In this document: piece by piece, positions 1,985 through 20,357 of the stretch
Position numbering within the stretch: the first letter of the stretch is position 1
Layout of the letters: every line of letters starts with the position of its first letter
Translations under genes and position numbers: made by a program
IMG/VR virus record: IMGVR_UViG_2534681675_000014
Reading direction: 5' to 3' (one strand)
Length of the DNA stretch: 51,064 nt
Origin: a virus
Lineage: Duplodnaviria; Heunggongvirae; Uroviricota; Caudoviricetes
The notes under the pieces: model-generated
What the model was told of the DNA's origin: nothing
The model's database searches: none
What the model saw: the letters and a program-made list of their open reading frames with translations, nothing else

Positions 1985-2794
1985 TTATTCCTCTGAATTA
2001 TCGATTACACTGTATTCCCCGGTTAATACAGAGGAATCTGCAGGATCGATTGTCAGTGGTTCCTTTTCATCCATTGATACTGCACGCTGGATCTCAATTG
2101 ATACGGGCAGATATTTGAACAGGCGACGAATAGCCGTTTTCTTTGCCATTTCTTCCCAGTGAGTTACCCACGGCCCGTTATTACCAGCTTTACTCAGGCT
2201 GCGCACCAGCTCAATCTGTTTGCGCGTCATAACTTCAAACTGAGTACCTCCGTCTTTAAGTCTTGCGACAGCATAGACGTGGGTAACCGGGGCATCTTCG
2301 TTTTCTCCCGGGCGGTGTATTAACTTTTCATCAAGGCCAAATTCGAAGCTAAACTCGTCACCTTCACGGACAACACGGGCTGACAGGCTGGCGATTTGAC
2401 CAGAACGGCGAGCCAGATCAATCATGCCGCGATAGCCAATGATTAGCTGAACGTTCTTTTTACCGCTCTTTTCGTTTTTATTACCAAAAGGCAGTAAATA
2501 TGCATGACCGAGGGCGCTACCTGGCTCAAGTCCGAGCTGTGAACACTGTACGATCGCACTGACAAAACTCATAGTGTCACAGTTTCCTAACGCCGGAACT
2601 TTACGAATTTCTGTGGTGGCGATACGGATCATACGTTCAGCCGTCATATGGCGTGGAAGAGCTGCTGCCAGTTGCTCTTTCATTGATGGCTGGTTAATAA
2701 AACTAATCACGTCGCTATTTTTAACTGCTGCTGGTGCACGGTTTCCCTGAGTTTTTTGCAGATCGGCTTTTGCGATTGGTGGTTGCTTAGTCAT
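1985..2794 (-). CDS. recT: RecT single-strand annealing recombinase
   Basis: 269-aa product from internal Met [13 protein letters not shown]... recalled as RecT; start overlaps recE stop by 8 nt. Confidence 0.9.
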
Positions 2795-5387
2795 TTGCAT
2801 ATTCCTTAGCCCTGCGGGGCAGTGATAATGTCTTAATAGCTGGCCATTCATCGGTATTCAGGCAGTCAGACAGGGTTCGCAGATTGCGGTGATATTCCTG
2901 TTGACCTGCCAGTTTTGCTTCTTCGCCCATCATGAAAATTTCAACCGGATAACGTCCGCACTCAATAGTTGTGCTGGCAACCAGAAAAACGAAAGTTGGC
3001 TGCACTCCAAACTGTGCTTCATAACCGTCACTGTAGAATGCATCCTGAACGTGATAGCGGTAGTCGTAATAAGCGGTTTTGAATCGTTGAATATCCGCCG
3101 TAGTTTTCACGTCCATGATCCAGTGAAATTCAGGGATAATTTTGTCCGGACGGCACCGACACAAAATTCCTGTTTCAGGATCTTCCCAGTAAATTGATGA
3201 TTCAGCGTGTCCGGCGCTTTCAACAAGCCATTGCCCCAGCGGCAAAGCCATAACGCTTTGATACATGAGTTCAATTTTCCGGCCTTCTTCCGCAGTGATA
3301 ACTGTTTTTCCTGTGCTTGCGCATTCCATCAGAAACGCTTTCTCTTCTTCTTTTCCGGCGTTTGTACGGCGGTTAAATTCAGGTGCTACGATAAAGCGGT
3401 TACTGAATTCTTCCGGTTCAAGTACCCGGCAGTGGAAAGCGGTTCCTAAATCGAGCGTTTTTGTCTTTGTGGTGTCCACGGGGGCATTTTTACGCCACAA
3501 ATATAGTGCCGGAGTATCAGCAATGTCATCGAGCTGAGACTTACTGACACCGGGACCCGCGTGGTAATTCTCATTCGAAATTCCGTAATAAATACCTGGC
3601 TCTATGTCTTCTACGATTACGGGATCTGCGACTTCGCCAGTTTCATCACTGCAATCGCGATGCGGATCGCTGCCAGCATTCTCATTGTGCGGATGTTCAG
3701 CGCCTTCCATTTCCTCCGGATCATTTTCCTTAGCTTCAACCTGACTCTCTTCATCGAATGTTTCCTGGTATGTTGCGTCGCCCATCACCGCACCACAGTC
3801 AGGGCAGTTATCCCCGCCAGTCTGGCCGCAGGCATTGCAGGCTATTTCCGGTTCCTGTTGCACTACTGGCTCAGGTTGATTCATATCCGGGCTGGTTTTT
3901 TCCGTTTCTGGCTGGTTCTGGTACACACAATTGCGAGTCTGGATCCCCTTTACCCATTTCGGATCGTTCGGGTCGCTAATTCCGTCAACAAATTCACCAC
4001 GTGATGCAGCAAGCAATTTATCGGCATCGACAGGATCTTTTGATGGAATGTTTTTCCGGGCTTCATGGAGTTCTGCCCGCAGTTCCTGATATTTCGCATC
4101 AACAGAATTTACCTGTGACTGAGCATCCAGCGGCTGCGTGTCCTGATGATGTTCAGTTGCGTCCGGTTCCATTGTTTCAGCCTCTCCCTGTTCAACTGCC
4201 GTTGTTCCAGATGGTTGCGGTTTTTCTTCATCATCCTGTTTTCCTTCTTCTGTTACTCGCTGCGGCATCGGGGCAGAGGAGCGACCGCAGGCAATATCCA
4301 CGATTTCCGGATCAGGGTTGGCATGATCGGTTTCAGTCAGTACTTTGTTCAGATATTCAGTGACGTGCGCGGGGATGACCTCGATCCCAATTGGTGCTTC
4401 TTTTACGGACGCAACCACGATGGCGCGGGAATAATCCAGCCCGCCAGGCATGGTGATGAATTTGTCGCGGAAAACAGAAAAGGGCGGTTTATTTTCAGCG
4501 ATAATTTCCTCAATGCGTTTAGCGTGTGCCGGATGAAGGTTATAGATGTCCAGATCCATTGAACGGGCCAGTACGCCAGTGGCTACGTCGCGCGCCAGTG
4601 ACGTCAGATCGTGTACGAAACCTTCGCCGCGATCGGTGAGGTTTCCGCCGCCAGCATTAGCACCGGAAGCCGTGCGAGTGATGTGTGAAACACGATTACC
4701 CTTCATCCACTCTTTTGTCAGCAGTCCTCGATCGGTGTAGTCAGCGTTCAGGTATGCTTCGAAAAAAGCAGTTATCAGTCCCAGGTTTGAATTACCAGGA
4801 TTAGGGAAAACTTTGTCAGTGTCACGAACCAGTTTGTGGAGTTCGCGAATTTCCAGCGGGTCGAGCAGGCTGGTTTTGTGGGAAACAGCCAGGGCAGTAA
4901 CAGCCGGTAGTTCTTCAGCCCGAGCAATGTGTAATGCCTGGAGTCCTTCGCGTGAAACGTGCGTTACCGGTTTTTCGCTGCCGTGTTGAGCAAGCCAACG
5001 AATGGGCAGTTCCTGGCCAGAAATTGGGAGTAGCATATTCTCCTCAATCTCAGTCATGTCTTCGCCGTTGACGTTGGTATTGCCTTGATAGTGAGCGTTG
5101 TCTGGTGCTGCTCCCGGTTTTAGTTCCCATGTCATGGAGTCTTTGCTGAGTTGATAGCGTTCACTCCAGGTAAAATCGATCTCACCTTCAGCGGGCAGGT
5201 CATTAACGACAGGAAAATTCGTGGCAACAGCTTTAAAATAGCTGCTCAGTTTTTTACCTGACTTAACGATCAGGTAGTCCAGAGTGGCACTGGTCGATTC
5301 AAAATCGTTGCTTGCCCACAGGACGACGTCAGGTTCACCGGATGATTTTTTCGCTTTCCGTAACAGGAAGAGTGGTTTTGTGCTCAT
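2787..5387 (-). CDS. recE: RecE exonuclease VIII
   Basis: 866-aa ORF, sequence recalled as Rac RecE; recE-recT order. Confidence 0.9.
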
Positions 5388-5488: not shown

Positions 5489-5764
5489 TCAGATTTCACC
5501 TTTTAATTTCATTGCAATTAGAGTTGCCAGAAATTCGGCTTTTTTTTCTGCGGGCAGATTCTTTCCGATATGCACCAGGCACATTTTTTTGACACCTTCA
5601 TCAAGTGTTTTTACGTTGCCTGATGGACCATCGATATCAACCACAGTGAATGGGGTTTCTTTATTTTCTGTTTTAATTACGTAGCCAATGCGCTTTCCTT
5701 CCAGATTCACCTCGTGAACAATGTCATCGGTAGTTACAACAGTGGCTTCATAATTGGTAATCAT
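5489..5764 (-). CDS. racC: RacC-like small protein (91 aa)
   Basis: ORF 5489..5812; internal Met MITNYEATVVTTDD... gives 91 aa; position upstream of recE as in Rac. Confidence 0.65.
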   Translation of the reverse strand: MITNYEATVVTTDDIVHEVNLEGKRIGYVIKTENKETPFTVVDIDGPSGNVKTLDEGVKKMCLVHIGKNLPAEKKAEFLATLIAMKLKGEI

Positions 5765-5838
5765 GTTTTTCTCCTTAATTAAGGTTGAGCGAATACCTGC
5801 CATTTCTGGCATAAATTCAGTTTCAAATAGTCAATTAA

Positions 5839-6009
5839 TTAAAGTTCATGTGCCATCTGGTCTTTTTCGGCACAAGCTTCACTGCAATATTTTCTCGGTT
5901 CGTCTTTTGATAAAATCCCGTGCATGAAGTGAAGCATTCTTTCAATAGCTTTGCTTTCTTCAACGTCTTTTTTGCAAAGGTGGTAAGCACATTTTATTTT
6001 CTTAGTCAT
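5839..6009 (-). CDS. ydaE: YdaE-like zinc-binding small protein (56 aa), below the ORF-track length cutoff
   Basis: Hand translation [56 protein letters not shown]; Cys/His-rich; ATG overlaps kilR stop (TGATG). Confidence 0.6.
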   Translation of the reverse strand: MTKKIKCAYHLCKKDVEESKAIERMLHFMHGILSKDEPRKYCSEACAEKDQMAHEL

Positions 6010-6242
6010 CACCATGACTCCGCCTTTACAGGTAAACCATCACGACCGAGGAAGACTTTAATCATGCGGTCAGTAATGCATGTTTTTGTGGTCAGGTTAC
6101 GAATATATAGTTTTCGCTTTTTAATATTGTTTGCCGAGGCAATATATGTCCGGCCTTCATGAAGAACATAATCGCCAGGAGTCACACACTGACGTGGTAT
6201 TTCATCAGTTCCGAAGTGATGTGCAATCATAATTATCTCCAT
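6009..6242 (-). CDS. kilR: KilR-like FtsZ inhibitor / host killing protein
   Basis: 77-aa ORF (73 aa from [14 protein letters not shown]...); recalled as Rac KilR; early-left operon position. Confidence 0.7.
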
Positions 6243-6671
6243 TTTTACAAATGAACTTTGTTGATGCGGTGCCTGGTGCCTCCAGGTGACTGCAACCAGT
6301 TAACAATTACAGTCGGCTTTCCCACCCAAACCAATAAGGACTAACATGACTTTTAACTGTGCCACGTGCGCTTAGCCGCATTCACCGCATCACAAAATTC
6401 ACTTTAAAAAGGGCGGACATCAGCCGAACTTCAAGAAAAAAACTGATGCCGCCAGGACTACACACAGCAATGTCGTTATTTACAACCGGAGGCGCACTCC
6501 CACCATTTAAATTTAACAGACAAGACCGACTCTTTATGGATATCGGAAATGCGCCTTCGTGTTGTGCCCGGTTTTATTTCACCACCTCCGGGCTTCGGTG
6601 GTCTCGGCTATACCCCTACAGCGAGAGCTTGTGTTAACATTTCAATACCCTTACAGTTGAGAGTTATTGAT

Positions 6672-7160
6672 ATGTTGGATGTATTTACTCCATTGTTGAA
6701 ACTTTTTGCTAACGAGCCACTCGAAAGACTTATGTATACGATTATCATTTTTGGTCTCACTCTCTGGCTGATACCGAAAGAGTTTACTGTCGCATTCAAT
6801 GCTTATACTGAAATACCTTGGCTCTTTCAGATTATCGTTTTTGCCTTTTCTTTCGTGGTCGCCATTTCCTTCTCAAGATTGCGAGCACATATTCAAAAGC
6901 ATTATTCATTACTACCAGAGCAACGAGTATTGCTTCGTTTATCTGAGAAAGAAATCGCTGTATTTAAAGATTTCCTTAAAACAGGAAATCTTATTATCAC
7001 TTCTCCTTGCCGTAACCCGGTTATGAAAAAATTAGAACGGAAGGGCATCATTCAACATCAGAGTGATAGCGCAAACTGTTCTTATTATCTCGTCACCGAA
7101 AAATACTCCCATTTTATGAAGTTATTCTGGAACAGCAGGAGTAGACGTTTTAATCGTTAG
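6672..7160 (+). CDS. sieB: Superinfection exclusion protein B (inner-membrane)
   Basis: 162-aa product from ATG 6672 (MLDVFTPLLKLFANEPLERL...), hydrophobic segments; only plus-strand gene in the early-left region. Confidence 0.8.
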   Translation: MLDVFTPLLKLFANEPLERLMYTIIIFGLTLWLIPKEFTVAFNAYTEIPWLFQIIVFAFSFVVAISFSRLRAHIQKHYSLLPEQRVLLRLSEKEIAVFKDFLKTGNLIITSPCRNPVMKKLERKGIIQHQSDSANCSYYLVTEKYSHFMKLFWNSRSRRFNR

Positions 7161-7742: not shown

Positions 7743-8381
7743 TTAAATATCTTGTTGAATTTTAAAGCATACGCCCAATATGCAAGATAGATCATCCAGC
7801 ATAATTGAAGGGTAGCGAGGATTCGTGGGGACTAAAAGAATATCCGGCCCTTCTATCTCCAGTTTACGAATGACAGGTGTTGTGGTCCCTTTGGGTAAGG
7901 CAAGGACAATATTTCCTGGTTGTACGGTTCGATCGGGATCAACAAAAACTGTTGAACCATTTGGGATGGAAACTCCCCCACCAGATGTTGACATACTGTC
8001 ACTCTCTAGAACAACTGCAAAGGTATTGGCCGGGATTTCTCCGACAAGCTGCACACAAGAGGTTATTGAGGAATTTTTCATATAATCACTCCAGCTTGCT
8101 GCCTGCTGAAGTGATAGTAGCGGAACCGTTTTTATCGGCGGTAAAGATAGATCAAGCGAATCACCTGTATTTAACTCTCCTCCATTAAGAAGCCAATTTT
8201 CGTTTACTTTCAATATCTTTGCCAGTGAACTTATGTAACGCGAGGACGGCGCTCCTCCACCGTTCATCCATTGACTTACGGAGCCTTTTGATGCGCCAGT
8301 GGCATTGACAAGGTCTTTGCCTTTCAGGTTTAGCGCATGCATACGTTGGGTTATGCGTTCAGATATTGTTTGCTTGCTCAT
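7743..8381 (-). CDS. CI-type prophage repressor (N-terminal HTH, C-terminal LexA/S24-like autopeptidase)
   Basis: 212 aa; N-terminus SERITQRMHALNLKGKDLVNATGASKGSVSQW is HTH-like; C-terminal half S24-peptidase-like; divergent from cro-like gene; ATG directly abuts operator repeats. Confidence 0.75.
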   Translation of the reverse strand: MSKQTISERITQRMHALNLKGKDLVNATGASKGSVSQWMNGGGAPSSRYISSLAKILKVNENWLLNGGELNTGDSLDLSLPPIKTVPLLSLQQAASWSDYMKNSSITSCVQLVGEIPANTFAVVLESDSMSTSGGGVSIPNGSTVFVDPDRTVQPGNIVLALPKGTTTPVIRKLEIEGPDILLVPTNPRYPSIMLDDLSCILGVCFKIQQDI

Positions 8382-11505: not shown

Positions 11506-12027
11506 ATGGGAATAACTAAAGAACGATTGTTGGAAATAGCAAACCTTAGTGATTGGGCATTAAGTGATGAGAGAATTATTTCTCCTCATGCTTATGAGTC
11601 AGTTACAAGTATAGAAATAACAACAATGGCTAGAATGCTGCTTGGTTATTTCAAAATAGAAAATAAAAAACAGATGGATAGTAATGTTGATATATGTGAG
11701 ATTTTAGACGATTGGGGGGCTTGGGTTGTGGCTGGTAATAGTTCTATTGATTGGCAGGAAATAGCTGATAAATATAAAAATGTTGTTCCTCATGGTAAAA
11801 AATCACGTCGTCAGTGCAGCAATGATGAAGGGCGAGTTATTGACATTAGTATCCTTAGGTTAGAAAGATATAAGCAACAAGAATATGAGTTAATTGTTGC
11901 TCATTTTGTGATTGGTTTATCTCTTCGTGCTATTGCAAAGCAACAAGGATGTTCAGATGGAACAATTCGTAAAAGATTGCAAAAAGCCTTAGGTTTTTTG
12001 ACTGGATATATAGCAATTACCAGTTAA
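11506..12027 (+). CDS. Q-family antiterminator-like protein (QuuD/933W-Q-like), paralog 1
   Basis: 173 aa from ATG 11506 (GGTGGAG SD); motifs DDWGAWVV, KSRRQCSNDEG, LIVAHFVIGLSLRAIAKQQGCSDGTIRKRLQKA align with recalled DLP12 QuuD sequence. Confidence 0.6.
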   Translation: MGITKERLLEIANLSDWALSDERIISPHAYESVTSIEITTMARMLLGYFKIENKKQMDSNVDICEILDDWGAWVVAGNSSIDWQEIADKYKNVVPHGKKSRRQCSNDEGRVIDISILRLERYKQQEYELIVAHFVIGLSLRAIAKQQGCSDGTIRKRLQKALGFLTGYIAITS

Positions 12028-12665
12028 GAGTCAGCGGGTTTTTTACCAGTGTAATGGTATAAGGATACTCCCATGTGTCTTACATGATATGGAAGCGCTG
12101 TTGCTGGATGCTTTGTGATACTCTTAAAGCGGAGGGGAGAGCCTTCCGCTTCAATTTCTGCGTCCGAAACGGTCGTAGAGAAAAATTCTTTCCATTCATT
12201 GAATTTTACTGCTGATTTGTCAGACTTTATATAAATTAGAATTCCTCCATGATCGTCACGTGACGTACCCGTGCCGTAACGTTCGGTTAGCTGAATCCAG
12301 CCATTATGAATAGATTTGGGGCCTCTCCATAATTTTGCTTCACCGATCCATTCGAATTTTCCGAATTGATGTTTAACTAATAAATCAACGTGACCGCCAT
12401 GTTGAGTATCATGTTCAACATCATAAAACCTACCTTTCAGGAAATTTTTGATCGACGCTGTTAGCTCGTCCTCTCCCCACTTAGCATCTTGATAGAAGTG
12501 TTTGTCATTTTCTAAATTCTGAATAGCGTCGTCTAAATCTTCATAGAGTTGCTTTACAAAAATATTTTTGTCTGCAGCTAATTTTCTTTGAACCATTCCC
12601 CTAAATTCAGGATCCATTCTAATTAATGATTGAAGGTCTGCAGTACAGATGTTTACATCACTCAT
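12024..12665 (-). CDS. Hypothetical protein with PD-(D/E)xK-like nuclease motif (213 aa), operon gene 3
   Basis: ATG 12665 with GGAGAG SD; motif GHVDLLV...FEWIGEAK; stop overlaps the Q-paralog-1 stop; AT-rich. Confidence 0.55.
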   Translation of the reverse strand: MSDVNICTADLQSLIRMDPEFRGMVQRKLAADKNIFVKQLYEDLDDAIQNLENDKHFYQDAKWGEDELTASIKNFLKGRFYDVEHDTQHGGHVDLLVKHQFGKFEWIGEAKLWRGPKSIHNGWIQLTERYGTGTSRDDHGGILIYIKSDKSAVKFNEWKEFFSTTVSDAEIEAEGSPLRFKSITKHPATALPYHVRHMGVSLYHYTGKKPADS

Positions 12666-13086
12666 GCAGACTCTCCAAAAGACTCGAAGGAGTAAAGTAT
12701 GGATAAAGATACTGGCTAAAATTATCAACCAATTCGCCAGTTTCTGGATGGTAAAAACTTCCTGTGTCTAAAGCATAGGAAATAAGATCATCTTCAACTG
12801 GTATTGGTTCTTCCGTTAAATTATCAATGTATTGAAAATGCATATCCAATAGATGTGCTTTATAGCTAGATAAATAATCAGTTGCTTTTATTAGCAGGAT
12901 ATAGTCATCTTTCGTATCAGTTAGATAGGTCAAACCATTGATAAGGGTTTTGTATGTAAAGTGATTGATATTTTTAGCATCTTTACTAACCAGAAAAAGA
13001 AAAAGATCACGACACACACTGCGAACAGGATCATTAAAATCCTGCTCTATTTGCGTGATAATGTCGTGATATATACTCTTTTTCAT
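12658..13086 (-). CDS. Hypothetical acidic protein (142 aa), operon gene 2
   Basis: ATG overlaps upstream gene stop (ATGA at 13083..13086); stop 2 nt before gene 3 start; AT-rich. Confidence 0.5.
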   Translation of the reverse strand: MKKSIYHDIITQIEQDFNDPVRSVCRDLFLFLVSKDAKNINHFTYKTLINGLTYLTDTKDDYILLIKATDYLSSYKAHLLDMHFQYIDNLTEEPIPVEDDLISYALDTGSFYHPETGELVDNFSQYLYPYFTPSSLLESLHE

Positions 13087-14174
13087 TTATGGCCTGATGA
13101 TCTCGCTCTTCTTTTCTCTTCACAGGACTTAACAGAATCCAATATTTTTTCAACAATAAATATAATCGAATCAATGTTGTTACAGTTCTTCGCAATTGCC
13201 TCATGCAACCTAATTCTAGGATTATCAAGCATTGTCCTTTTCCCTGGTAATATTAACTCTACTGATAAAATATGTGAAGAACTTTGTGGTAAATCCCAAA
13301 TTTTTCCCAACTTAAACTTTGTCAATATTGGGCTTGCGGACTCTCCACTATGATGGTAAACATCTTGACGCAAACACTTTTGACTTGGTTTGAGTTTTAA
13401 AGAACTTGTATTGCCATCTGAGGTGATAAAAGATACATGAGAAATTCTGCCATCTACTTTCTCGTAAAGATCTTGTATTGAACCAAATAATTCAAGAGGA
13501 TTGTTTAAAATAACGCCAGCTTCTTTTTTTATAAAATTAGCCACAAGGTATTGTTGAGGCTGTGATTCACTTCTTGGAAGGATAGATAAATCAATCGTAA
13601 GAATTAATATTTTTTCTGCAGGCATTAGCATGATGGTATTAAAGCATTGCGTGACTTGGCGTGTTTTGCATTTTATTTCTCCACCATTAGCACGTAATTC
13701 CATACCCGCATCGCTAAGATGTGTTGGGTCAAGCTCTATCACTTCAGTGTAATACGCTTTGGATAAAAAAACAGCAGTGTCAATTTGTTTATCACGAATG
13801 ATATCTTGACGTAGTTCAGCAAAATGCAGCTCAGTATCAGCAACTAACAGCTCCTCTCTGGATAAAGGAGTTGGGTATTTTTCTGAGAAGGGGCTATTGT
13901 CCTTTTTCTGATTTGTGAAAATTGTTTGTAATTTTGCTACGTCTTCATCGGTGATTCTATAAATAGAAAGTAATCGATTCCCGCTAAAAATTAAACCTTT
14001 CCAGAAATCGTCGATTCTGTCTTTTAGGTCGGGATTATGCTGAACTACACTATTTACACGTTCAATAAAAAGGGGTAATCCTTGGGCCGTTACACCCAGT
14101 GATGAACCAAGAAGCTTACGGGTGTTGCGCCAGCCAAAGCGTGAATTGATGTTTTTTACTGTTTGCTCAAGCAT
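13083..14174 (-). CDS. Hypothetical protein (363 aa), operon gene 1
   Basis: ATG 14174 preceded by AAGGAAG SD (ORF track alternative GTG at 14180); AT-rich; no family recognised. Confidence 0.55.
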   Translation of the reverse strand: MLEQTVKNINSRFGWRNTRKLLGSSLGVTAQGLPLFIERVNSVVQHNPDLKDRIDDFWKGLIFSGNRLLSIYRITDEDVAKLQTIFTNQKKDNSPFSEKYPTPLSREELLVADTELHFAELRQDIIRDKQIDTAVFLSKAYYTEVIELDPTHLSDAGMELRANGGEIKCKTRQVTQCFNTIMLMPAEKILILTIDLSILPRSESQPQQYLVANFIKKEAGVILNNPLELFGSIQDLYEKVDGRISHVSFITSDGNTSSLKLKPSQKCLRQDVYHHSGESASPILTKFKLGKIWDLPQSSSHILSVELILPGKRTMLDNPRIRLHEAIAKNCNNIDSIIFIVEKILDSVKSCEEKRRARSSGHK

Positions 14175-14462
14175 TAACACTTCCTTAATTTTCCCTTAAC
14201 AATTTAGGGTGCTAAACTTTTTTGCGCAGTTTACACAAAAAAATAGTGCGTACGCAAAAACTATCTAACATGATGAGCTTTAACCGGGAAACTTGTATAT
14301 GTTGTGAGCATAAAGTTGGCTGAGAAATCTAAAACGGGTAGAATGACTGCGGGTGCTTGAGGCTATCTGCCTCGGGCATGAACACCAAAGGCAGATAGAG
14401 AAAAGCCCCAGTTAACATTACGCGTCCTGCAAGACGCTTAACATTAATCTGAGGCCAATTTC

Positions 14463-15744: not shown

Positions 15745-16034
15745 TGGTGGATTTACGTAAAGCGGCGCGGGGGCAGATGTGCACCGTCAGAATTCCTGGC
15801 TACTGCAATCACGATCCGGAAACGTCTGTGCTGGCGCATTACCGACTGGCGGGAACGTGCGGAATAACGACAAAACCACACGATATGCAGGCGGCGATTG
15901 CCTGTAGCTCATGCCACGATCTAATCGACGGGCGGGTAAAAACCAGCGATTACACCAAAGAAGAATTACGCCTGATGCATGCAGAAGGTGTTTTTCGCAC
16001 ACAAGAAATCTGGAGAAAGGAGGGATATTTGTGA
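15744..16034 (+). CDS. YbcO-like Cys/His-rich nin-region protein (putative nuclease)
   Basis: 96 aa; Cys/His pattern CTVRIPGYCNH...CSSCHD; length and position match DLP12 YbcO as recalled. Confidence 0.6.
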   Translation: MVDLRKAARGQMCTVRIPGYCNHDPETSVLAHYRLAGTCGITTKPHDMQAAIACSSCHDLIDGRVKTSDYTKEELRLMHAEGVFRTQEIWRKEGYL

Positions 16035-16573
16035 TTTACCCAACGAATACAGGAAAAAGCGGAGAACACCTTCGTCTCGCCACGCTGGAAAGTGTCTGGA
16101 TTCAGGGCAAACTGCGTATGTGGGGGCGCTGGTCGTATATTGGCGGTGGCAGGTCAGGAAATATGTTCAATCAGTTGTTGGCATCCCAAAAATTGACGAA
16201 AACAGCCATCAATGAAGCCCTGCGCAGAATGAAAAAAGCGGGAATAGAGAAAGCTGAGCTGGAAGCGTTTTTGAGAGAGATGATCAACGGCAAGCAAAAG
16301 AGCTGGCTGGCGCATTGTACTGATGCAGAGGCGTTATGTATTGATCGAGTCATAAGTGAGGTGCTGGCAGAGCATCCAGGATTGATTTGCATTCTCCGGC
16401 AACGCTATGAAGGGCGGGGGATGACTAAGCGTAAAATGGCTGAATTGCTACATGATGCACACCCAGAGTGGTGTTTTAGCACATGCGAAAAACGGATTGC
16501 TAATTGGTTAGCTGTTGCTGAGTATGTCCTATATATTCCCATGCGTGAATCATTTGCTGAGAAAATGGCTTGA
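16031..16573 (+). CDS. Q-family late-gene antiterminator, paralog 2 (likely the functional late activator)
   Basis: GTG 16031 overlapping upstream stop (GTGA), AGGAGGG SD; WGRW motif and Q-like C-terminus; followed by a strong terminator about 85 bp downstream. Confidence 0.55.
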   Translation: MIYPTNTGKSGEHLRLATLESVWIQGKLRMWGRWSYIGGGRSGNMFNQLLASQKLTKTAINEALRRMKKAGIEKAELEAFLREMINGKQKSWLAHCTDAEALCIDRVISEVLAEHPGLICILRQRYEGRGMTKRKMAELLHDAHPEWCFSTCEKRIANWLAVAEYVLYIPMRESFAEKMA

Positions 16574-16656
16574 TTTCTTACGTATAAACTGCTTCAATTT
16601 CGCTATGCTTCGCAAAGCTGTATCGCGAGGCGAACAATCCCACGGATACAAAAAAA

Positions 16657-16677
16657 CCACCTAAAGGTGGTTTTTTT
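16657..16677 (+). terminator. Rho-independent terminator (tR-prime-like) downstream of Q paralog 2
   Basis: ccacc-taaa-ggtgg stem-loop followed by T7. Confidence 0.6.
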
Positions 16678-16952
16678 GTATCTGTAAGAAATGAGATATT
16701 AGTGTTGATATATTGTTGTTGTTTTGATGCATATTTCTATGCCTAAATAATGTGATGTAGATCACTTATATTATTAATGCTGTATTTTAATCTATTAAGG
16801 ATCTTGAGGTGTTCCCCAGGGCGGGGGTGGCAAGGTATAACTGTTTAGCGGGAGGGAAGCCACAGTGTATTAGTCAGGAGCTGATATACTTCGGGAGGCA
16901 CCCGACGCCTCAGATCATAATAATAATGACCTCTTTAGCTAACCATCTTTTT

Positions 16953-16976
16953 ACCGCCTTGACGGGCGGTTTTTTG
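16953..16976 (+). terminator. Rho-independent terminator
   Basis: accgcc-ttgacg-ggcggt hairpin followed by TTTTT. Confidence 0.5.
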
Positions 16977-17098
16977 TTTATATAGAAAGTATTTGGCAGG
17001 GATTTTAGGCTAAAAATCACCACGTAGTCTTAATTCAGGACTGAGGAGACGTTGATGTTGGTGAGATGATGCAGCACGGCTTCTGGCATAATTTCAGG

Positions 17099-17126
17099 CA
17101 AAAAAAACGGCCCGTGAAAGAGCCGT
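17099..17126 (-). terminator. Minus-strand terminator-like hairpin 1
   Basis: acggc/gccgt stem; A-run on plus strand equals T-run after the hairpin on minus strand. Confidence 0.4.
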
Positions 17127-17256
17127 AAAATCTAATGCATTTCAAAATTCGCCTCCAGAAAAACTCTTATATCTTTAGGTGTCATGATTTGTTTTTCCTT
17201 GACCTTAGTCAATATTACTATGTCATTATTAATGGTTGATTGTTTTTCATCCAGAT

Positions 17257-17278
17257 AAAAAAGCCCTCTTGCGAGGGC
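17257..17278 (-). terminator. Minus-strand terminator-like hairpin 2
   Basis: gccctc-ttgc-gagggc with A6 on plus strand (T6 on minus). Confidence 0.45.
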
Positions 17279-17405
17279 ACTAGTATGAAAATATGTGAAG
17301 CAATATTTATTAGCGTTTATGTAGTGGAGTTTTGGATTTTGTGATTTTTTTATAAGTTTTTTTGTGATGCAGATCTTTTTTTGACATTGTGTCGGTGATA
17401 GTCCG

Positions 17406-17432
17406 AAAAAAAGCGACCCGTTAAAGAGTCGC
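17406..17432 (-). terminator. Minus-strand terminator-like hairpin 3
   Basis: gcgac-ccgttaaaga-gtcgc with A7 on plus strand; loop resembles hairpin 1. Confidence 0.4.
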
Positions 17433-17545
17433 TTGTGAATAAAGGAAGTATATAAGTAACCGCGTACGTTATTAATTCTATTGCTCTATGCCTGTGACGG
17501 ATATTGATTTTGGTCAATTCATCTGTAATGAGTGGTTATTTACGA

Positions 17546-17572
17546 TAAAAAATAGCTCCCCGGAAGAGGAGC
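17546..17572 (-). terminator. Minus-strand terminator-like hairpin 4
   Basis: gctcc/ggagc stem with A-run on plus strand. Confidence 0.35.
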
Positions 17573-17822
17573 CCGTGAAAATTCATGGTGAGAAGAACAA
17601 GGATTTACAAAAGATTCCGACAGACAAAGAATCGTAGGTATTTTATGAGGCGATATTGGTTTTGTGGTGATTTATATCAATATCTTGATGGTTTCTTGAA
17701 TGCTTGATGGCTAATTATAATTATGCATATTAAATGATTATTATTGTTTTCATATAGAAATAAGTAGCATCCTTGATATAGTAACAGCACAACTCGAATT
17801 TTCTTTCACTGGGAGACTATTT

Positions 17823-18080
17823 ATGCACTCACACCATCATCAAATATCTATGAGCCAACTTACCATGAGTTCACCCATTAAAGGTTTTTCACTGTATGTA
17901 GAAAGCGAAGACGTGGCTGTCGCGATAGCTGAACTTGAAAAGGCCTTATCACAGCTCAGGAACGGAGATAAGGCATTCAAAGAAAGTGGTACGCTGGTTG
18001 GTAACGTCAGAGCAAGTTATTGCTATCCTTACCGCCCCCATTGTGTCGCGAAAGGTCTTTATTGGGATGAAGGGGATTAA
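17823..18080 (+). CDS. Hypothetical protein (85 aa)
   Basis: ATG with GGGAGA SD; convergent with the 170-aa gene and overlapping its stop. Confidence 0.4.
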   Translation: MHSHHHQISMSQLTMSSPIKGFSLYVESEDVAVAIAELEKALSQLRNGDKAFKESGTLVGNVRASYCYPYRPHCVAKGLYWDEGD

Positions 18081-18589
18081 GCAAGGACTTGTTCACCGAT
18101 AGTTACTGGTAGCGGACAAATGTATTCCCAGACTGGATCAGGGTTAAAGGTTTTACCTGCCCAGTAAAGTTCCATTCTGTAGGTGAATTCCAGTACTGAT
18201 GTATCATTTCTTAATAATGACATATCTCCGCGATGATAACTATCTGTTTGTATTATGAAGATTTTATCAGATGGTTTCCCGTCTGTAAGTCGAAAATGTT
18301 TAGCCTCCTCCAGGTTACCCCATGCGAAGAGTGACGTATAGCGAGAAGGTTTTTGCGGGTAAACTCCTCTTCGGTAAAACTCTAACCCCCAGTCGATGAA
18401 TTCGTTTTTATTATAAATTTTTGCCGCATTGTTAATAAGGTATCCCTCGCCATGTGGTGCAAGCCCGCACGGAAAAAGTTTGTCTACCAGAGATGACATT
18501 TCGACAGGACTTATATCGGAGAATCGCTTTGGTGTAACAATATCGCCAGTTGAGTATATTCCTCGGCGATCAACCAAAAATAGTTCCAT
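18077..18589 (-). CDS. Hypothetical protein (170 aa), cargo gene in the Q-to-lysis region
   Basis: ATG with GGAGAAA SD; minus strand, opposite to late transcription; AT-rich. Confidence 0.5.
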   Translation of the reverse strand: MELFLVDRRGIYSTGDIVTPKRFSDISPVEMSSLVDKLFPCGLAPHGEGYLINNAAKIYNKNEFIDWGLEFYRRGVYPQKPSRYTSLFAWGNLEEAKHFRLTDGKPSDKIFIIQTDSYHRGDMSLLRNDTSVLEFTYRMELYWAGKTFNPDPVWEYICPLPVTIGEQVLA

Positions 18590-18782
18590 TCATTTTCTCC
18601 ATTGATAGTTGTTACTTTTGGCGATGTAACGATATCAAGTGCGAGGTTATGCCGCCAGATTCTTAATCTGGTACTTCATCAGGCCCTTGCATGTACTAGG
18701 GCTTTTTCATTGTCAGGCTACGGATAACATCTCTGACTTCTTGTTAGTAAATCTGAGAGCCTGGACCCTACTGGATTTGCCC

Positions 18783-19688
18783 CTATATTTCCAGACATCT
18801 GTTATCACTTAACCCATTACAAGCCCGCTGCCGCAGATATTCCCGTGGCGAGCGATAACCCAGCGCACTATGCGGATGCCATTCGTTATAATGCTCGAAC
18901 GCCTCTGCAAGGTTCTTTGCTGCCGTTAACCCGTCTGGTTTGGGCATGATACTGATGTAGTCACGCTTTATCGTTTTCACGAAGCTCTCTGCTATTCCGT
19001 TACTCTCCGGACTCCGCACCGCCGTGTTCTTCGGTTCAAGTCCCAACATCCGGGCGAACTGGCGTGTTTCATTAGCCCGGTAGCATGAACCATTATCCGT
19101 CAGCCACTCCACTGGAGACGACGGAAGATCGTTGCCGAAGCGGCGTTCCACCGCTCCCAGCATGACGTCCTGTACTGTTTCACTGTTGAAGCCGCCAGTA
19201 GTCACCGCCCAGTGCAGTGCCTCACGATCACAGCAGTCCAGCGCGAACGTGACACGCAGTCTCTCTCCGTTATCACAGCAGAACTCGAACCCGTCAGAGC
19301 ACCATCGCTGATTGCTTTCTTTCACGGCCACTCTGCCTGTATGTGCCCGTTTCGATGGCGGTACAGCAGGTTTTCGCTCAAGCAACAGCGCATTCTGGCG
19401 CATGATCCGGTAAACACGTTTGGCATTGATCGCAGGCATACCATCAAGTTCTGCCTGTCTGCGAAGCAGCGCCCATACCCGACGATAACCATACGTGGGC
19501 AGCTCTCCGATAACATGGTGTATACGGAGAAGCACATCCGTATCATCAGTGTGACGACTGCGGCGGCCATCCATCCAGTCATCGGTTCGTCTGAGAATGA
19601 CGTGCAACTGCGCACGCGACACCCGGAGACAACGGCTGACTAAGCTTACTCCCCATCCCCGGGCAATAAGGGCGCGTGCGCTATCCAC
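18783..19688 (-). CDS. insD: IS2 transposase OrfB (InsD)
   Basis: 301 aa, recalled as IS2 InsD. Confidence 0.9.
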
Positions 19689-20011
19689 TTTTTTGCCCGT
19701 CCATATTCAACGGCTTCTTTGAGGAGTTCATTTTCCATCGTTTTCTTGCCGAGCAGGCGCTGGAGTTCTTTAATCTGCTTCATGGCGGCAGCAAGTTCAG
19801 AGGCAGGAACAACCTGTTCTCCGGCGGCGACAGCAGTAAGACTTCCTTCCTGGTATTGCTTACGCCAGAGAAATAACTGGCTGGCTGCTACACCATGTTG
19901 CCGGGCAACGAGGGAGACCGTCATCCCCGGTTCAAAGCTCTGCTGAACAATTGCGATCTTTTCCTGTGTGGTACGCCGTCTGCGTTTCTCCGGCCCTAAG
20001 ACATCAATCAT
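19646..20011 (-). CDS. insC: IS2 OrfA (InsC)
   Basis: 121 aa from [18 protein letters not shown]...; overlaps insD as expected for the InsCD frameshift fusion. Confidence 0.85.
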
Positions 20012-20141
20012 CTGTTCTCCAATGACTAGTCTAAAAACTAGTATTAAGACTATCACTTATTTAAGTGATACTGGTTGTCTGGAGATTCAGGGGGCCAGTC
20101 TACCTACGTTTAGCACCATCCGAATTCTCGGAGGTGAGGCT

Positions 20142-20357
20142 ATGAAATCCATGGACAAGTTAACAACGGGCATTGCCTACGGCACCTCCGCAGGCAGTGC
20201 TGGATACTGGTTTTTACAGTGGCTGGATCAGGTCAGTCCGTCACAGTGGGCTGCAATTGGTGTGCTGGGAAGTCTGGTTCTGGGCTTTTTGACTTATCTG
20301 ACAAATCTGTACTTCAAAATCAGAGAAGACAGAAGAAAGGCTGCGAGAGGAGAGTAA
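20142..20357 (+). CDS. Class II holin (phage 21 S21-type pinholin)
   Basis: 71 aa [30 protein letters not shown]...; dual-start Met1/Met4; GGAGGTGAGG SD. Confidence 0.85.

What the first reader, a model, noticed from the sequence alone, without database searches (positions are those of the whole stretch)
17823..18589. Convergent, overlapping unknown gene pair in the Q-to-lysis cargo site
An 85-aa plus-strand gene (GGGAGA SD) and a 170-aa minus-strand gene (GGAGAAA SD) converge and share their stop region (18077..18080). The 170-aa gene is transcribed against the late operon and is followed on its own strand by the terminator-like array. I recognise neither protein. The Q-to-holin interval is where lambdoid phages carry fitness or virulence cargo, and a convergent overlapping pair resembles toxin/antitoxin or effector/immunity layouts.
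Basis: partly seen in the sequence, partly recalled or inferred. Interest (0 to 1): 0.5.

Follow-up and report, generated by a model that had tools for sequence, protein, structure and literature searches.

The report
Prophage ADP-ribosyltransferase-like gene with convergent partner
The two overlapping genes are real and always travel together in prophages of gut bacteria; the larger one has the fold of NAD-using ADP-ribosyltransferase toxins (an uncharacterised family, DUF2441) and faces against the phage's late genes, so it is probably a lysogen-expressed accessory or defence enzyme with a dedicated small partner, though no function has been shown.

Summary
An 85-aa ORF (17823-18080, +) and a 170-aa ORF (18077-18589, -) converge and share TTAA. 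They lie between the Q antiterminator (16031-16573) and a P21-type holin (20142-20357).

Both genes are under purifying selection (dN/dS 0.05-0.39). They are inherited as one block in different prophage backbones of Escherichia, Salmonella, Providencia and Arsenophonus. All 27 held loci with a DUF2441 at least 70% identical also carry the partner; none of 18 more distant loci does.

The larger gene is antisense to the late operon. It sits behind a roughly 130-bp conserved cassette that precedes various other antisense accessory genes in lambdoid phages.

My best reading is a two-gene moron. The ART-like enzyme would be made in the lysogen. On induction it would be silenced by late transcription and neutralised by the partner. 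The toxin/antitoxin reading is only partly supported: the layout is not an operon, and most DUF2441 genes are solitary. An IS2 (18772-20102) separates the module from the holin.

The parts
17823..18080 (+). 85-aa partner gene, an orphan family. It has a His-rich N-terminus and the invariant motifs ESED (27-30), FKES (52-55) and H73-C74...KGLYWDE. It runs in the same direction as Q and the late operon.
   Evidence: ORF; 16 homologues, none with a Pfam domain; invariant columns; dN/dS 0.09-0.39. It is found next to the DUF2441 gene in every case. The AF2 model is poor (pLDDT 60) and has no fold or sequence match.
18077..18589 (-). 170-aa DUF2441/BC2332-like protein with an ADP-ribosyltransferase fold. 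Family-invariant residues are G47, R73, R83, Y142, W143 and E155. It is antisense to the late operon.
18590..18643 (-). Conserved leader palindrome just upstream of the DUF2441 start. The SD GGAGAAA is the complement of 18594-18600. The outer arms are TTGATA (18602-18607) and TATCAA (18633-18638), the inner arms GTTAC (18611-18615) and GTAAC (18626-18630), and the invariant 15-mer ATCGCCAAAAGTAAC is the complement of 18611-18625. It is either a 5'-UTR hairpin that occludes the SD or a DNA operator.
   Evidence: Conserved from E. coli to Arsenophonus. The same element lies 21-23 nt before the ATG of unrelated cargo genes in 42 viral contigs. Cognate arms pair better than non-cognate arms, with 0 of 2000 permutations reaching the observed value. 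No Rfam match.
18655..18671 (.). Perfect palindrome CCAGAT-N5-ATCTGG, which overlaps a candidate weak sigma-70 promoter of the DUF2441 gene (-35 GTACCA, -10 CATAAC on the minus strand). It may be an operator.
   Evidence: It is the only perfect match in the window. It is conserved in most cassette copies. The promoter assignment was made by eye and is an inference.
18681..18708 (+). Hairpin plus T-run that reads as an intrinsic terminator on the late (+) strand. It lies just past the DUF2441 promoter region and before the holin.
   Evidence: Sequence. The stem sequence differs between loci while the hairpin-plus-T-run arrangement is kept. The fold of the + strand shows the hairpin. The consensus scan did not call it because the loop is 12 nt.
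17107..17573 (-). Four terminator-like hairpins with T-runs on the minus strand (17573-17554, 17434-17411, 17278-17263, 17126-17107). They are the likely 3' end(s) of the DUF2441 transcript after it has crossed the partner gene in antisense.
   Evidence: They are not repeats of one another.
16575..16680 (+). Likely late promoter P_R' with a short leader and the terminator tR', immediately after Q. Candidate elements are -35 TTGATT, a 17-nt spacer, -10 TTCAAT, then a -10-like TATGCT, then the hairpin 16652-16680.
   Evidence: The sequence is conserved next to the same Q type in the window, in Salmonella L003 and in phage vB_EcoS-666R9. The functional assignment is an inference from lambdoid architecture.
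18772..20102 (-). IS2 (1331 bp, transposase genes on the minus strand) with the target duplication CCTAC. It is inserted between the cassette and the holin and is absent from all related loci.
16031..16573 (+). Q-type antiterminator (DUF1133 / Phage_antitermQ). It marks the left border of the cargo site.
20142..20357 (+). Class II (P21-type) holin. It marks the right border of the cargo site.

Best explanation
The pair is a self-contained two-gene accessory module (a 'moron') of lambdoid prophages. It is inserted between the Q/late-promoter region and the lysis genes.

The 170-aa gene encodes a DUF2441/BC2332-type protein with the ADP-ribosyltransferase fold. It is transcribed against the late operon from its own conserved promoter/leader cassette. 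I therefore infer that it is made in the lysogen, where late transcription is off. There it would use NAD+ to modify a target that is still unknown (a component of an incoming phage, a host factor, or a small molecule), to the benefit of the lysogen.

The 85-aa gene lies on the late strand without a conserved promoter of its own. In Salmonella and related phages it is the first ORF after Q, P_R' and tR'. I infer that it is made mainly when Q switches on late transcription.

At that moment two things would happen. First, strong convergent late transcription runs antisense through the whole DUF2441 gene and its promoter, shutting it off by transcriptional interference or duplex RNA. Second, the partner protein neutralises or re-tunes the enzyme already present, so that the prophage's own lytic growth is not harmed.

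Shown here: both genes are real; they are linked and diverge together; the larger protein's family and fold; the orientation; the conserved cassette; the terminators.

Inferred: when each gene is expressed; enzymatic activity; the target; the partner's neutralising role.
For: Both genes are real and under purifying selection.

They are strictly linked. All 27 held loci with a DUF2441 at least 70% identical carry the partner, and none of 18 more distant loci does. Identity of the two proteins falls in parallel: 100/100, 93/95, 77/87, 71/80 and 60/70% for small/large.

The same 4-bp stop overlap occurs in at least five prophage contexts in four genera. DNA homology between backbones is limited to 17801/17878 through 18660/18694. 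That span is the two genes plus about 70-105 bp upstream of the DUF2441 start, and it does not include any promoter for the small gene. Both genes are degraded together in L014.

Antisense placement relative to late genes recurs in other DUF2441 phage clades. In a Mu-like Salmonella prophage the DUF2441 gene follows the repressor gene on the same strand, which fits expression in the lysogen.

The conserved cassette upstream of the gene is documented. A late-strand terminator lies behind it. Minus-strand terminators lie downstream of the pair.

In Salmonella and Providencia a terminator followed by an SD lies directly before the small gene, after the Q-proximal promoter-like region.

Two further cassette-borne DUF2441 clades also have a convergent small late-strand ORF at their 3' end.
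Against: There are no expression data of any kind. The cassette's promoter is weak by consensus and was not called by the scan.

In the window, a candidate extended -10 promoter lies before the small gene (17755-17782). It could make the partner constitutive here.

The partner has no detectable fold or domain, and its AF2 model is poor.

Most DUF2441 genes elsewhere lack any conserved partner, so the enzyme need not be harmful.

Homology between the 85-aa partner and the 69-74-aa partner of the 179-aa clade is not significant (hhalign E 0.15-0.39).

The catalytic residues were not placed on a superposed structure, so activity is not established. This sequence itself scores below the Pfam gathering cut-off (12.3 against 25 bits).

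There are no PADLOC or NCBIfam hits.

In this window the IS2 separates the late promoter from the lysis genes. The prophage may be defective, and the proposed logic may no longer operate here.
Confidence: 0.45

Rival explanations
1. Classical toxin-antitoxin or addiction module. The DUF2441 enzyme is a growth-arresting ART toxin (as DarT, ParT/RES or CmdT are), and the 85-aa protein is its constitutively made proteic antitoxin. The module would stabilise the prophage or act by abortive infection.
For: The larger protein has an ART fold shared with DarT, RES toxins and Rhs ART toxins. A small partner is tightly co-inherited and evolves faster than the enzyme. In the window, a candidate extended -10 promoter lies before the small gene. 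Both genes decay together in L014.
Against: The genes are convergent, not a bicistronic operon. The partner has no DNA-binding or known antitoxin domain. No promoter for the partner is conserved between contexts. Relatives at 30-46% identity occur without any conserved partner. No PADLOC model matches. In L019 an insertion of about 1.3 kb separates the two genes, and both stay intact.
Confidence: 0.2
2. The enzyme serves the phage or mobile element rather than the lysogen. It would be a counter-defence or host-takeover ART (as T4 Alt/Mod or the anti-CRISPR AcrIF11 are), or an Arr-like enzyme that modifies a small molecule. The small ORF would be an accessory factor or be functionally unrelated.
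Against: In lambdoid prophages the gene is consistently antisense to the lytic transcripts. In a Mu-like prophage it runs in the same direction as the repressor gene. A takeover gene would be expected on an early lytic transcript.
Confidence: 0.15
3. There is no protein-level coupling. The 85-aa gene is simply the first gene of the late transcript, with a function of its own. The DUF2441 gene is an independent antisense moron, and the two stay together only because they are adjacent and move by the same recombination events.
For: Cargo genes behind the same cassette are diverse and are mostly flanked by unrelated late-strand ORFs. An example is the 189-aa ORF convergent with the 53-aa cargo. 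Homology between partners of different DUF2441 clades is not demonstrable.
Against: Co-occurrence is 27 of 27 across four genera and at least five backbones. Recombination boundaries fall outside the pair, never between the genes. The 4-bp overlap is conserved down to 60-70% identity. Three DUF2441 clades each have a convergent small ORF abutting their stop codon.
Confidence: 0.15
4. The fold is retained but the chemistry is not ADP-ribosylation. DUF2441 could be an NAD(P)/nucleotide-binding or RNA 2'-phosphotransferase-like protein, or a catalytically inactive scaffold.
For: No DUF2441 member has been characterised in the literature I could search. Tpt1 and the CC0527-like protein are also among the structural matches. 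The middle motif of the ART triad could not be assigned.
Against: Arg and Glu are strictly invariant across about 50 diverse members (R83, E155). These positions are identical in the solved BC2332 structure. The depositors' template analysis matched that structure's site to the diphtheria-toxin active site (PMC3024214).
Confidence: 0.05

Closest known systems
BC2332 of Bacillus cereus (PDB 2AUA) / Pfam DUF2441 (PF10386), SCOP 'BC2332-like' family of the ADP-ribosylation fold
   Different: Identity is only 17%. BC2332 is longer (224 aa), with an N-terminal extension. No function, partner or phage context has been described for it. The window sequence itself is below the Pfam gathering score.
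ART toxin systems with a cognate neutraliser: DarT-DarG, ParT-ParS (RES-Xre), Rhs/T6SS ART toxins with immunity proteins (e.g. TreX-TriX, Tre1-Tri1), CmdTAC
   Different: In those systems the partner is co-transcribed, and it is a macrodomain, an Xre-type repressor or a defined immunity fold. Here the partner is convergent, overlaps only at the stop codon and has no recognisable fold. Toxicity is untested, and most DUF2441 genes have no partner.
Lambdoid 'morons' and lysogenic-conversion genes in the late region (lambda bor and lom, HK97/HK022 morons, stx downstream of Q); this comparison rests on my own knowledge of the literature
   Same: It is an independent transcription unit inserted between conserved late-region genes. 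It is present in a few relatives only: 7 of 5426 complete E. coli genomes. It is oriented against late transcription, as lambda bor is, and it has terminators on its own strand.
   Different: It is a two-gene convergent unit rather than a single gene. It uses a promoter/leader cassette that is shared with unrelated cargo genes, which has not been described for morons as far as I know.
Prophage defence with built-in self-immunity (BstA with its aba element); recalled from memory, not tested here
   Same: The proposed logic is the same: the lysogen expresses a defence protein, and the prophage carries a device that spares its own lytic cycle.
   Different: The aba element is a DNA sequence inside bstA, not a protein. 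BstA is not an ART. Nothing in this window has been shown to be a defence.
Arr rifampin ADP-ribosyltransferase
   Different: Arr uses an H-Y-D motif. DUF2441 conserves Arg and Glu instead. There is no sequence similarity.

Membership tests
Pfam DUF2441 (PF10386) / BC2332-like | Sequence scores above the Pfam gathering threshold | tested here: not met
   hmmscan of the window protein against PF10386.15 gives 12.3 bits against a cut-off of 25, E 0.17. Close homologues do carry precomputed PF10386.17 hits, and 41 of 51 family members pass at E <= 0.01.
Pfam DUF2441 (PF10386) / BC2332-like | Profile-level homology to the founding structure BC2332 (2AUA) | tested here: met
   A profile of 51 relatives hits 2aua_A at E 4.8e-14 over profile positions 60-170, with the conserved motifs aligned.
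Pfam DUF2441 (PF10386) / BC2332-like | Same three-dimensional fold as BC2332 | tested here: met
ADP-ribosyltransferase superfamily (Pfam ADP-ribosyl clan) | ART split beta-sheet core fold | tested here: met
ADP-ribosyltransferase superfamily (Pfam ADP-ribosyl clan) | Catalytic triad (R-S-E or H-Y-E) in the NAD+ pocket | tested here: inconclusive
   R83 (with S82 just before a strand) and E155 (on a late strand) are invariant, and R73, Y142 and W143 are also invariant. The middle motif could not be assigned, and no structural superposition onto a liganded ART was possible with these tools.
ADP-ribosyltransferase superfamily (Pfam ADP-ribosyl clan) | NAD+-dependent transfer of ADP-ribose to a substrate | not testable with these tools
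   This needs biochemistry. No characterised DUF2441 member was found in the searchable literature.
Type II toxin-antitoxin system | Toxin and antitoxin co-transcribed from one autoregulated operon | tested here: not met
   The genes are convergent and share only the stop codons, in every locus.
Type II toxin-antitoxin system | Antitoxin with a recognisable DNA-binding or neutralising domain | tested here: not met
   There are no Pfam, NCBIfam, PADLOC or PDB matches, and PHROG hits are only at E >= 0.07. There is no fold match, though the model is poor.
Type II toxin-antitoxin system | Toxicity of one component relieved by the other | not testable with these tools
   This needs expression experiments.
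Known anti-phage defence systems (PADLOC-DB 2.0) | Match to a model of a described defence protein | tested here: not met
   No family reaches E <= 1 for either protein.
Phage 'moron' (independently transcribed accessory unit) | Present or absent among otherwise related phages at the same site | tested here: met
   The pair is in 7 of 5426 complete E. coli genomes. The same site in related phages holds other cargo, such as the 189-aa/53-aa genes in vB_EcoS-666R9 and in 254 genomes. Homology between backbones is limited to the module.
Phage 'moron' (independently transcribed accessory unit) | Own promoter and own terminator | tested here: inconclusive
   A conserved upstream cassette holds a candidate weak promoter, and minus-strand terminators lie downstream. 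There is no transcript evidence, and the consensus scan did not call the promoter.

The most novel reading that the evidence does not exclude
The module is a previously undescribed prophage defence. A DUF2441 ADP-ribosyltransferase made in the lysogen blocks superinfecting phages. A late-expressed 85-aa protein, together with convergent late transcription, gives the prophage immunity to its own weapon.

In addition, the roughly 130-bp cassette in front of the gene (a palindromic leader with the invariant ATCGCCAAAAGTAAC, an operator-like palindrome and a late-strand terminator) would be a new portable regulatory element. Lambdoid phages would use it to plug diverse antisense cargo genes in between Q and the lysis genes.
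Probability: 0.2. Interest if true: 0.75.

Novelty: new variant of a known kind. Interest (0 to 1): 0.55.

Why it matters
DUF2441 is a widespread ART-fold family with a solved structure (2AUA, 2005) but no known activity, target or biological role. A search of 50%-identity cluster representatives found 1472 matches.

This prophage clade offers a tractable entry point. It is a small enzyme in E. coli and Salmonella prophages. It has a co-evolving partner that should report on its activity. Its defined genomic switch position predicts when each product is made.

If the enzyme is a defence or lysogenic-conversion factor, it would add a new ART family to phage-host conflict systems. It would also add a new layout: a convergent, late-expressed self-immunity gene.

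Independently, the shared upstream cassette suggests that lambdoid phages have a standard socket for antisense accessory genes. That would help to find and annotate such genes, many of them 50-100 aa and easily missed.

Tried and rejected
1. Direct family scans of both proteins (Pfam, NCBIfam, PADLOC) gave nothing significant. Only PHROG 5663 (unknown function) matched the large protein.

2. Structure of the small protein. The AF2 model is poor (pLDDT 60). Foldseek against PDB gave no match at E <= 0.001. The PDB sequence hits are artefacts of His-tags matching its HHHH N-terminus.

3. I tested whether the cassette might itself be the late promoter P_R'. I rejected this as the main reading. 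A better candidate (promoter, -10-like pause element, terminator) lies directly after Q and is conserved with that Q type. In addition, real protein-coding cargo starts 21-23 nt from the cassette core on the opposite strand. It is not formally excluded.

4. I looked for the cassette palindromes at the prophage immunity region, on the idea that CI or Cro regulates the gene. No related sites were found.

5. I tried to decide which strand of the leader palindrome functions as RNA. The late strand folds somewhat better: -12.8 against -8.5 kcal/mol, z -2.2 against -1.5, and more G.U pairs. The SD-occluding pairs make sense only on the cargo strand. This is unresolved.

6. Homology between the 85-aa partner and the 69-74-aa partner of another DUF2441 clade was not significant.

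7. A search for a conserved partner across the wider DUF2441 family found none.

8. The Aravind ART review could not be retrieved. Literature searches for DUF2441, PF10386 and BC2332 gave only classification statements.

9. The INPHARED phage collection holds no copy of the pair. A megablast of a tRNA-adjacent cassette variant found nothing useful.

10. The terminator 'array' is not made of repeats, and its count is not above chance.
Full report
**The observation**

The window carries an 85-aa ORF at 17823-18080 on the plus strand and a 170-aa ORF at 18077-18589 on the minus strand. Their TAA stop codons interlock in the palindrome TTAA at 18077-18080. Both have plausible ribosome-binding sites.

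The pair lies in a Rac-like lambdoid prophage. The prophage has RecE at 2787-5387 and an S24/HTH repressor at 7743-8381. The pair sits between a Q-type antiterminator (16031-16573; DUF1133 at 1e-106, and Phage_antitermQ above its cut-off) and a P21-type holin (20142-20357).

In this window only, an IS2 (18772-20102, target duplication CCTAC) has landed between the pair and the holin.

**Are the genes real?**

Both are real. I compared six loci that differ by up to dS of about 2. Pairwise dN/dS is 0.09-0.39 for the small gene and 0.05-0.20 for the large one. Only the annotated frame of the small gene is open in all loci.

Ten homologues of the small protein keep the His-rich N-terminus (H5 and H6 are invariant). 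This supports the 85-aa start over the 76-aa start that PGAP uses in some genomes.

**What the large protein is**

Direct scans gave only PHROG 5663 (unknown function, 3e-59) and a sub-threshold DUF2441 hit. Its homologues, however, carry PF10386.

An exhaustive profile search found 1472 cluster representatives. A profile of 51 of them hits the solved structure BC2332 (2AUA) at E 4.8e-14. The motifs VRR, PSR, YW and the Glu are aligned. Of the 51 members, 41 hit Pfam DUF2441.

Pfam files DUF2441 in the ART clan (PMC7955679). SCOP has a BC2332-like family in the ADP-ribosylation fold (PMC3000352). The depositors' template analysis matched the BC2332 site to the diphtheria-toxin active site (PMC3024214).

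Family-invariant residues are G47, R73, R83, Y142, W143 and E155. An Arg before an early strand and a Glu on a late strand fit the ART signature. I could not assign the middle motif or superpose on a liganded ART, so catalysis is inferred, not shown.

I found no experimental work on any DUF2441 member. There is no match to known defence models.

**What the small protein is**

It is an orphan. It has 16 homologues, none with a Pfam domain. Invariant features are H5-H6, ESED (27-30), FKES (52-55), Y66, Y68-P69, R71, H73-C74 and KGLYWDE.

The AF2 model is poor (pLDDT 60) and has no meaningful fold or sequence match.

**Linkage of the two genes**

The pair occurs with the same 4-bp overlap in several contexts:
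- a second E. coli backbone (strain C311), with a different Q, a methyltransferase and a lambda-type holin;
- Salmonella prophages, where the order is Q, then the 85-aa gene, then the convergent DUF2441 gene, then the holin;
- Providencia;
- Arsenophonus-type phages, where the pair lies between RusA and a methyltransferase.

DNA homology between these backbones starts at 17801 or 17878 and ends at 18660-18694. That span is the two genes plus 70-105 bp upstream of the DUF2441 start.

Over all loci held, 27 of 27 with a DUF2441 at least 70% identical carry the partner, and 0 of 18 with 46% identity or less do. Identity of small and large proteins falls in parallel: 100/100, 93/95, 77/87, 71/80 and 60/70%.

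In L014 both genes are degraded. In L019 an insertion of about 1.3 kb separates them while both stay intact.

The pair is rare. It is in 7 of 5426 complete E. coli genomes and in no INPHARED phage.

**The expression architecture**

Immediately after Q there is a conserved stretch: TTGATT, a 17-nt spacer, TTCAAT, then a -10-like TATGCT, then a terminator at 16652-16680. The same stretch occurs in Salmonella and in phage vB_EcoS-666R9 next to the same Q type. I take this to be P_R'/tR', by inference from lambdoid architecture.

In Salmonella, the small gene's SD follows a terminator downstream of the Q-proximal promoter-like region. Providencia has a comparable terminator just upstream of its small gene. 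The small gene would therefore be the first ORF of the Q-dependent late transcript there.

No promoter for the small gene is conserved between contexts. The window has a candidate extended -10 promoter at 17755-17782.

The DUF2441 gene points the other way. Its transcript would cross the partner gene in antisense and meet four terminator-like sites at 17573-17107.

A late-strand hairpin plus T-run at 18681-18708 lies just beyond the DUF2441 promoter region. The two transcription units would therefore be fully complementary over more than 0.7 kb. Antiterminated late transcription would run head-on through the DUF2441 gene and its promoter.

**The cassette**

The roughly 130 bp upstream of the DUF2441 ATG is conserved from E. 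coli to Arsenophonus. In Providencia it occurs twice in the same Q-holin gap, once before DUF2441 and once before an unrelated 176-aa gene.

Of these, 42 carry the extended element, in 38 unique versions.

The gene that starts 21-23 nt downstream differs between loci:
- three DUF2441 clades (170, 179 and 176 aa);
- a 51-55-aa family;
- a 67-69-aa zinc ribbon;
- an 80-99-aa family;
- a 148-aa protein.

In almost every locus the cargo is antisense to the flanking phage genes. The cassette abuts the holin or the phage tRNA genes. The version with the 53-aa cargo is in 254 of 5426 E. coli genomes.

The core of the cassette is a palindrome. Its outer arms differ between versions yet stay complementary: cognate arms give -8.6 kcal/mol against -6.6 for non-cognate arms, and 0 of 2000 permutations reach the observed value. 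This test does not correct for relatedness among the sequences.

The flanks of the palindrome pair with the SD. The late-strand RNA folds slightly better. I therefore cannot say which strand is functional, or whether the DNA itself is. No Rfam family matches.

**Context of the wider family**

- A clade at 45% identity in enterobacterial phages sits between the lysis genes and terS. It is again antisense and has no partner.
- A Mu-like Salmonella prophage has the gene after the repressor gene, on the same strand.
- Other members lie in a Burkholderia conjugative element, next to an AAA_15/HNH pair in Photobacterium, in an integrase island, or alone among housekeeping genes. The Nocardia member sits among genes with no family annotation.
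- No partner is conserved family-wide.
- The two other cassette-borne clades each have a convergent small late-strand ORF at their 3' end. The 179-aa clade has a 69-74-aa ORF with a gap of 12-15 bp, in six loci. The 176-aa clade has a 63-aa ORF with a 23-bp overlap. Homology to the 85-aa protein is not significant.

**Interpretation**

The best-supported reading is a two-gene moron. An ART-fold enzyme is expressed from its own cassette in the lysogen. A dedicated partner is encoded on the late strand. Convergent late transcription and the partner protein would switch the enzyme off when the prophage is induced.

The identity of the parts, their linkage and their orientation are shown. The timing, the chemistry, the target and the partner's role are inferred.

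A classical toxin-antitoxin pair is less likely, given the layout, the absence of an antitoxin-type domain and the solitary relatives. A phage-serving counter-defence or small-molecule-modifying enzyme, or mere adjacency without protein coupling, remain possible.

In this particular window the IS2 separates the late promoter and the module from the lysis genes. The prophage may be defective, but the module and its cassette are intact.

**Verdict**

The finding is a new variant of a known kind: an ART-based accessory or conflict module in a lambdoid cargo site. Its enzyme family is uncharacterised, its convergent partner is unusual, and its shared regulatory cassette is, as far as I know, undescribed. 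Interest 0.55.

Noticed in passing
window 18590-18720 (minus strand); also L012 4831-4961 and 5768-5898, L156 3480-3600, and 42 IMG/VR loci (L037-L148): A portable cassette of about 130 bp precedes unrelated antisense cargo genes between Q and the lysis genes or tRNA genes of many lambdoid phages. It consists of a late-strand terminator, the palindrome CCAGAT-N5-ATCTGG, and a roughly 45-nt palindromic leader with the invariant ATCGCCAAAAGTAAC ending 21-23 nt before the ATG. The outer arms co-vary and the flanks pair with the SD. There is no Rfam match. The functional strand is unresolved.
   Followed up: partly
window 18772-20102: An IS2 (1331 bp, transposase on the minus strand) with the 5-bp target duplication CCTAC is inserted 40 bp upstream of the holin start. 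It is absent from all related loci. It separates Q/P_R' and the module from the lysis and morphogenesis genes. Its transposase is transcribed towards the DUF2441 gene.
   Followed up: partly
window 16575-16680 and 16775-16979 (+): A conserved promoter-like stretch plus terminator lies directly after Q and is probably P_R'/tR'. It is followed by a sub-threshold match to the Rfam sRNA family STnc100 (26 bits against a gathering score of 47; E 0.004-0.014), which ends at a second plus-strand terminator (16953-16970).
   Followed up: partly
window 16980-17820: An AT-rich stretch of 0.85 kb holds no ORF of convincing length and four minus-strand terminator-like hairpins spaced about 150 bp apart. 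They are not repeats of one another. The stretch is present in the six closest E. coli genomes but absent from the C311, Salmonella, Providencia and Arsenophonus versions of the module.
   Followed up: partly
L058 10102-10326, L076 9739-9948 (also L081, L096, L135, L139); L094 2420-2611, L074: Two other DUF2441 clades (179 aa and 176 aa) that sit behind the same cassette each have their own convergent small late-strand ORF (69-74 aa and 63 aa) abutting or overlapping their stop codon. The 69-74-aa family resembles the 85-aa protein in layout: an N-terminal His, a beta-strand, an acidic patch and a helix. Similarity is not significant (hhalign E 0.15).
   Followed up: partly
L156 2781-3350 (+) and about 3320-3481 (-); 254 of 5426 E. 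coli genomes: In the commonest version of the cargo site, a 189-aa late-strand gene of unknown function converges on and overlaps a 53-aa antisense gene (MSEKNKPQ...FATRRVFVGDSA) driven by the cassette. This is the same convergent layout as the finding. Neither protein has a Pfam match.
   Followed up: partly
L019 about 5516-6845: In one IMG/VR prophage an insertion of about 1.3 kb lies exactly at the junction of the two genes. About 10 bp around the overlap is duplicated, and both ORFs stay intact. The inserted element was not identified.
   Followed up: no
window 12024-14180 (minus strand): Three consecutive minus-strand ORFs (234, 142 and 365 aa) in the nin region, antisense to the early-right operon, have no Pfam or PADLOC match. 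At the corresponding place, the related genome T-HYM1 has an AAA ATPase plus a DUF4435 protein (L001 268-2426), a pairing reminiscent of a PARIS-type defence.
   Followed up: partly
L031 3948-6308: In a Mu-like Salmonella prophage a 188-aa DUF2441 gene follows the CI-like repressor gene and a 124-aa ORF on the same strand. It converges (10-bp gap) on a 243-aa P-loop-like protein. This is a different possible partner arrangement.
   Followed up: no
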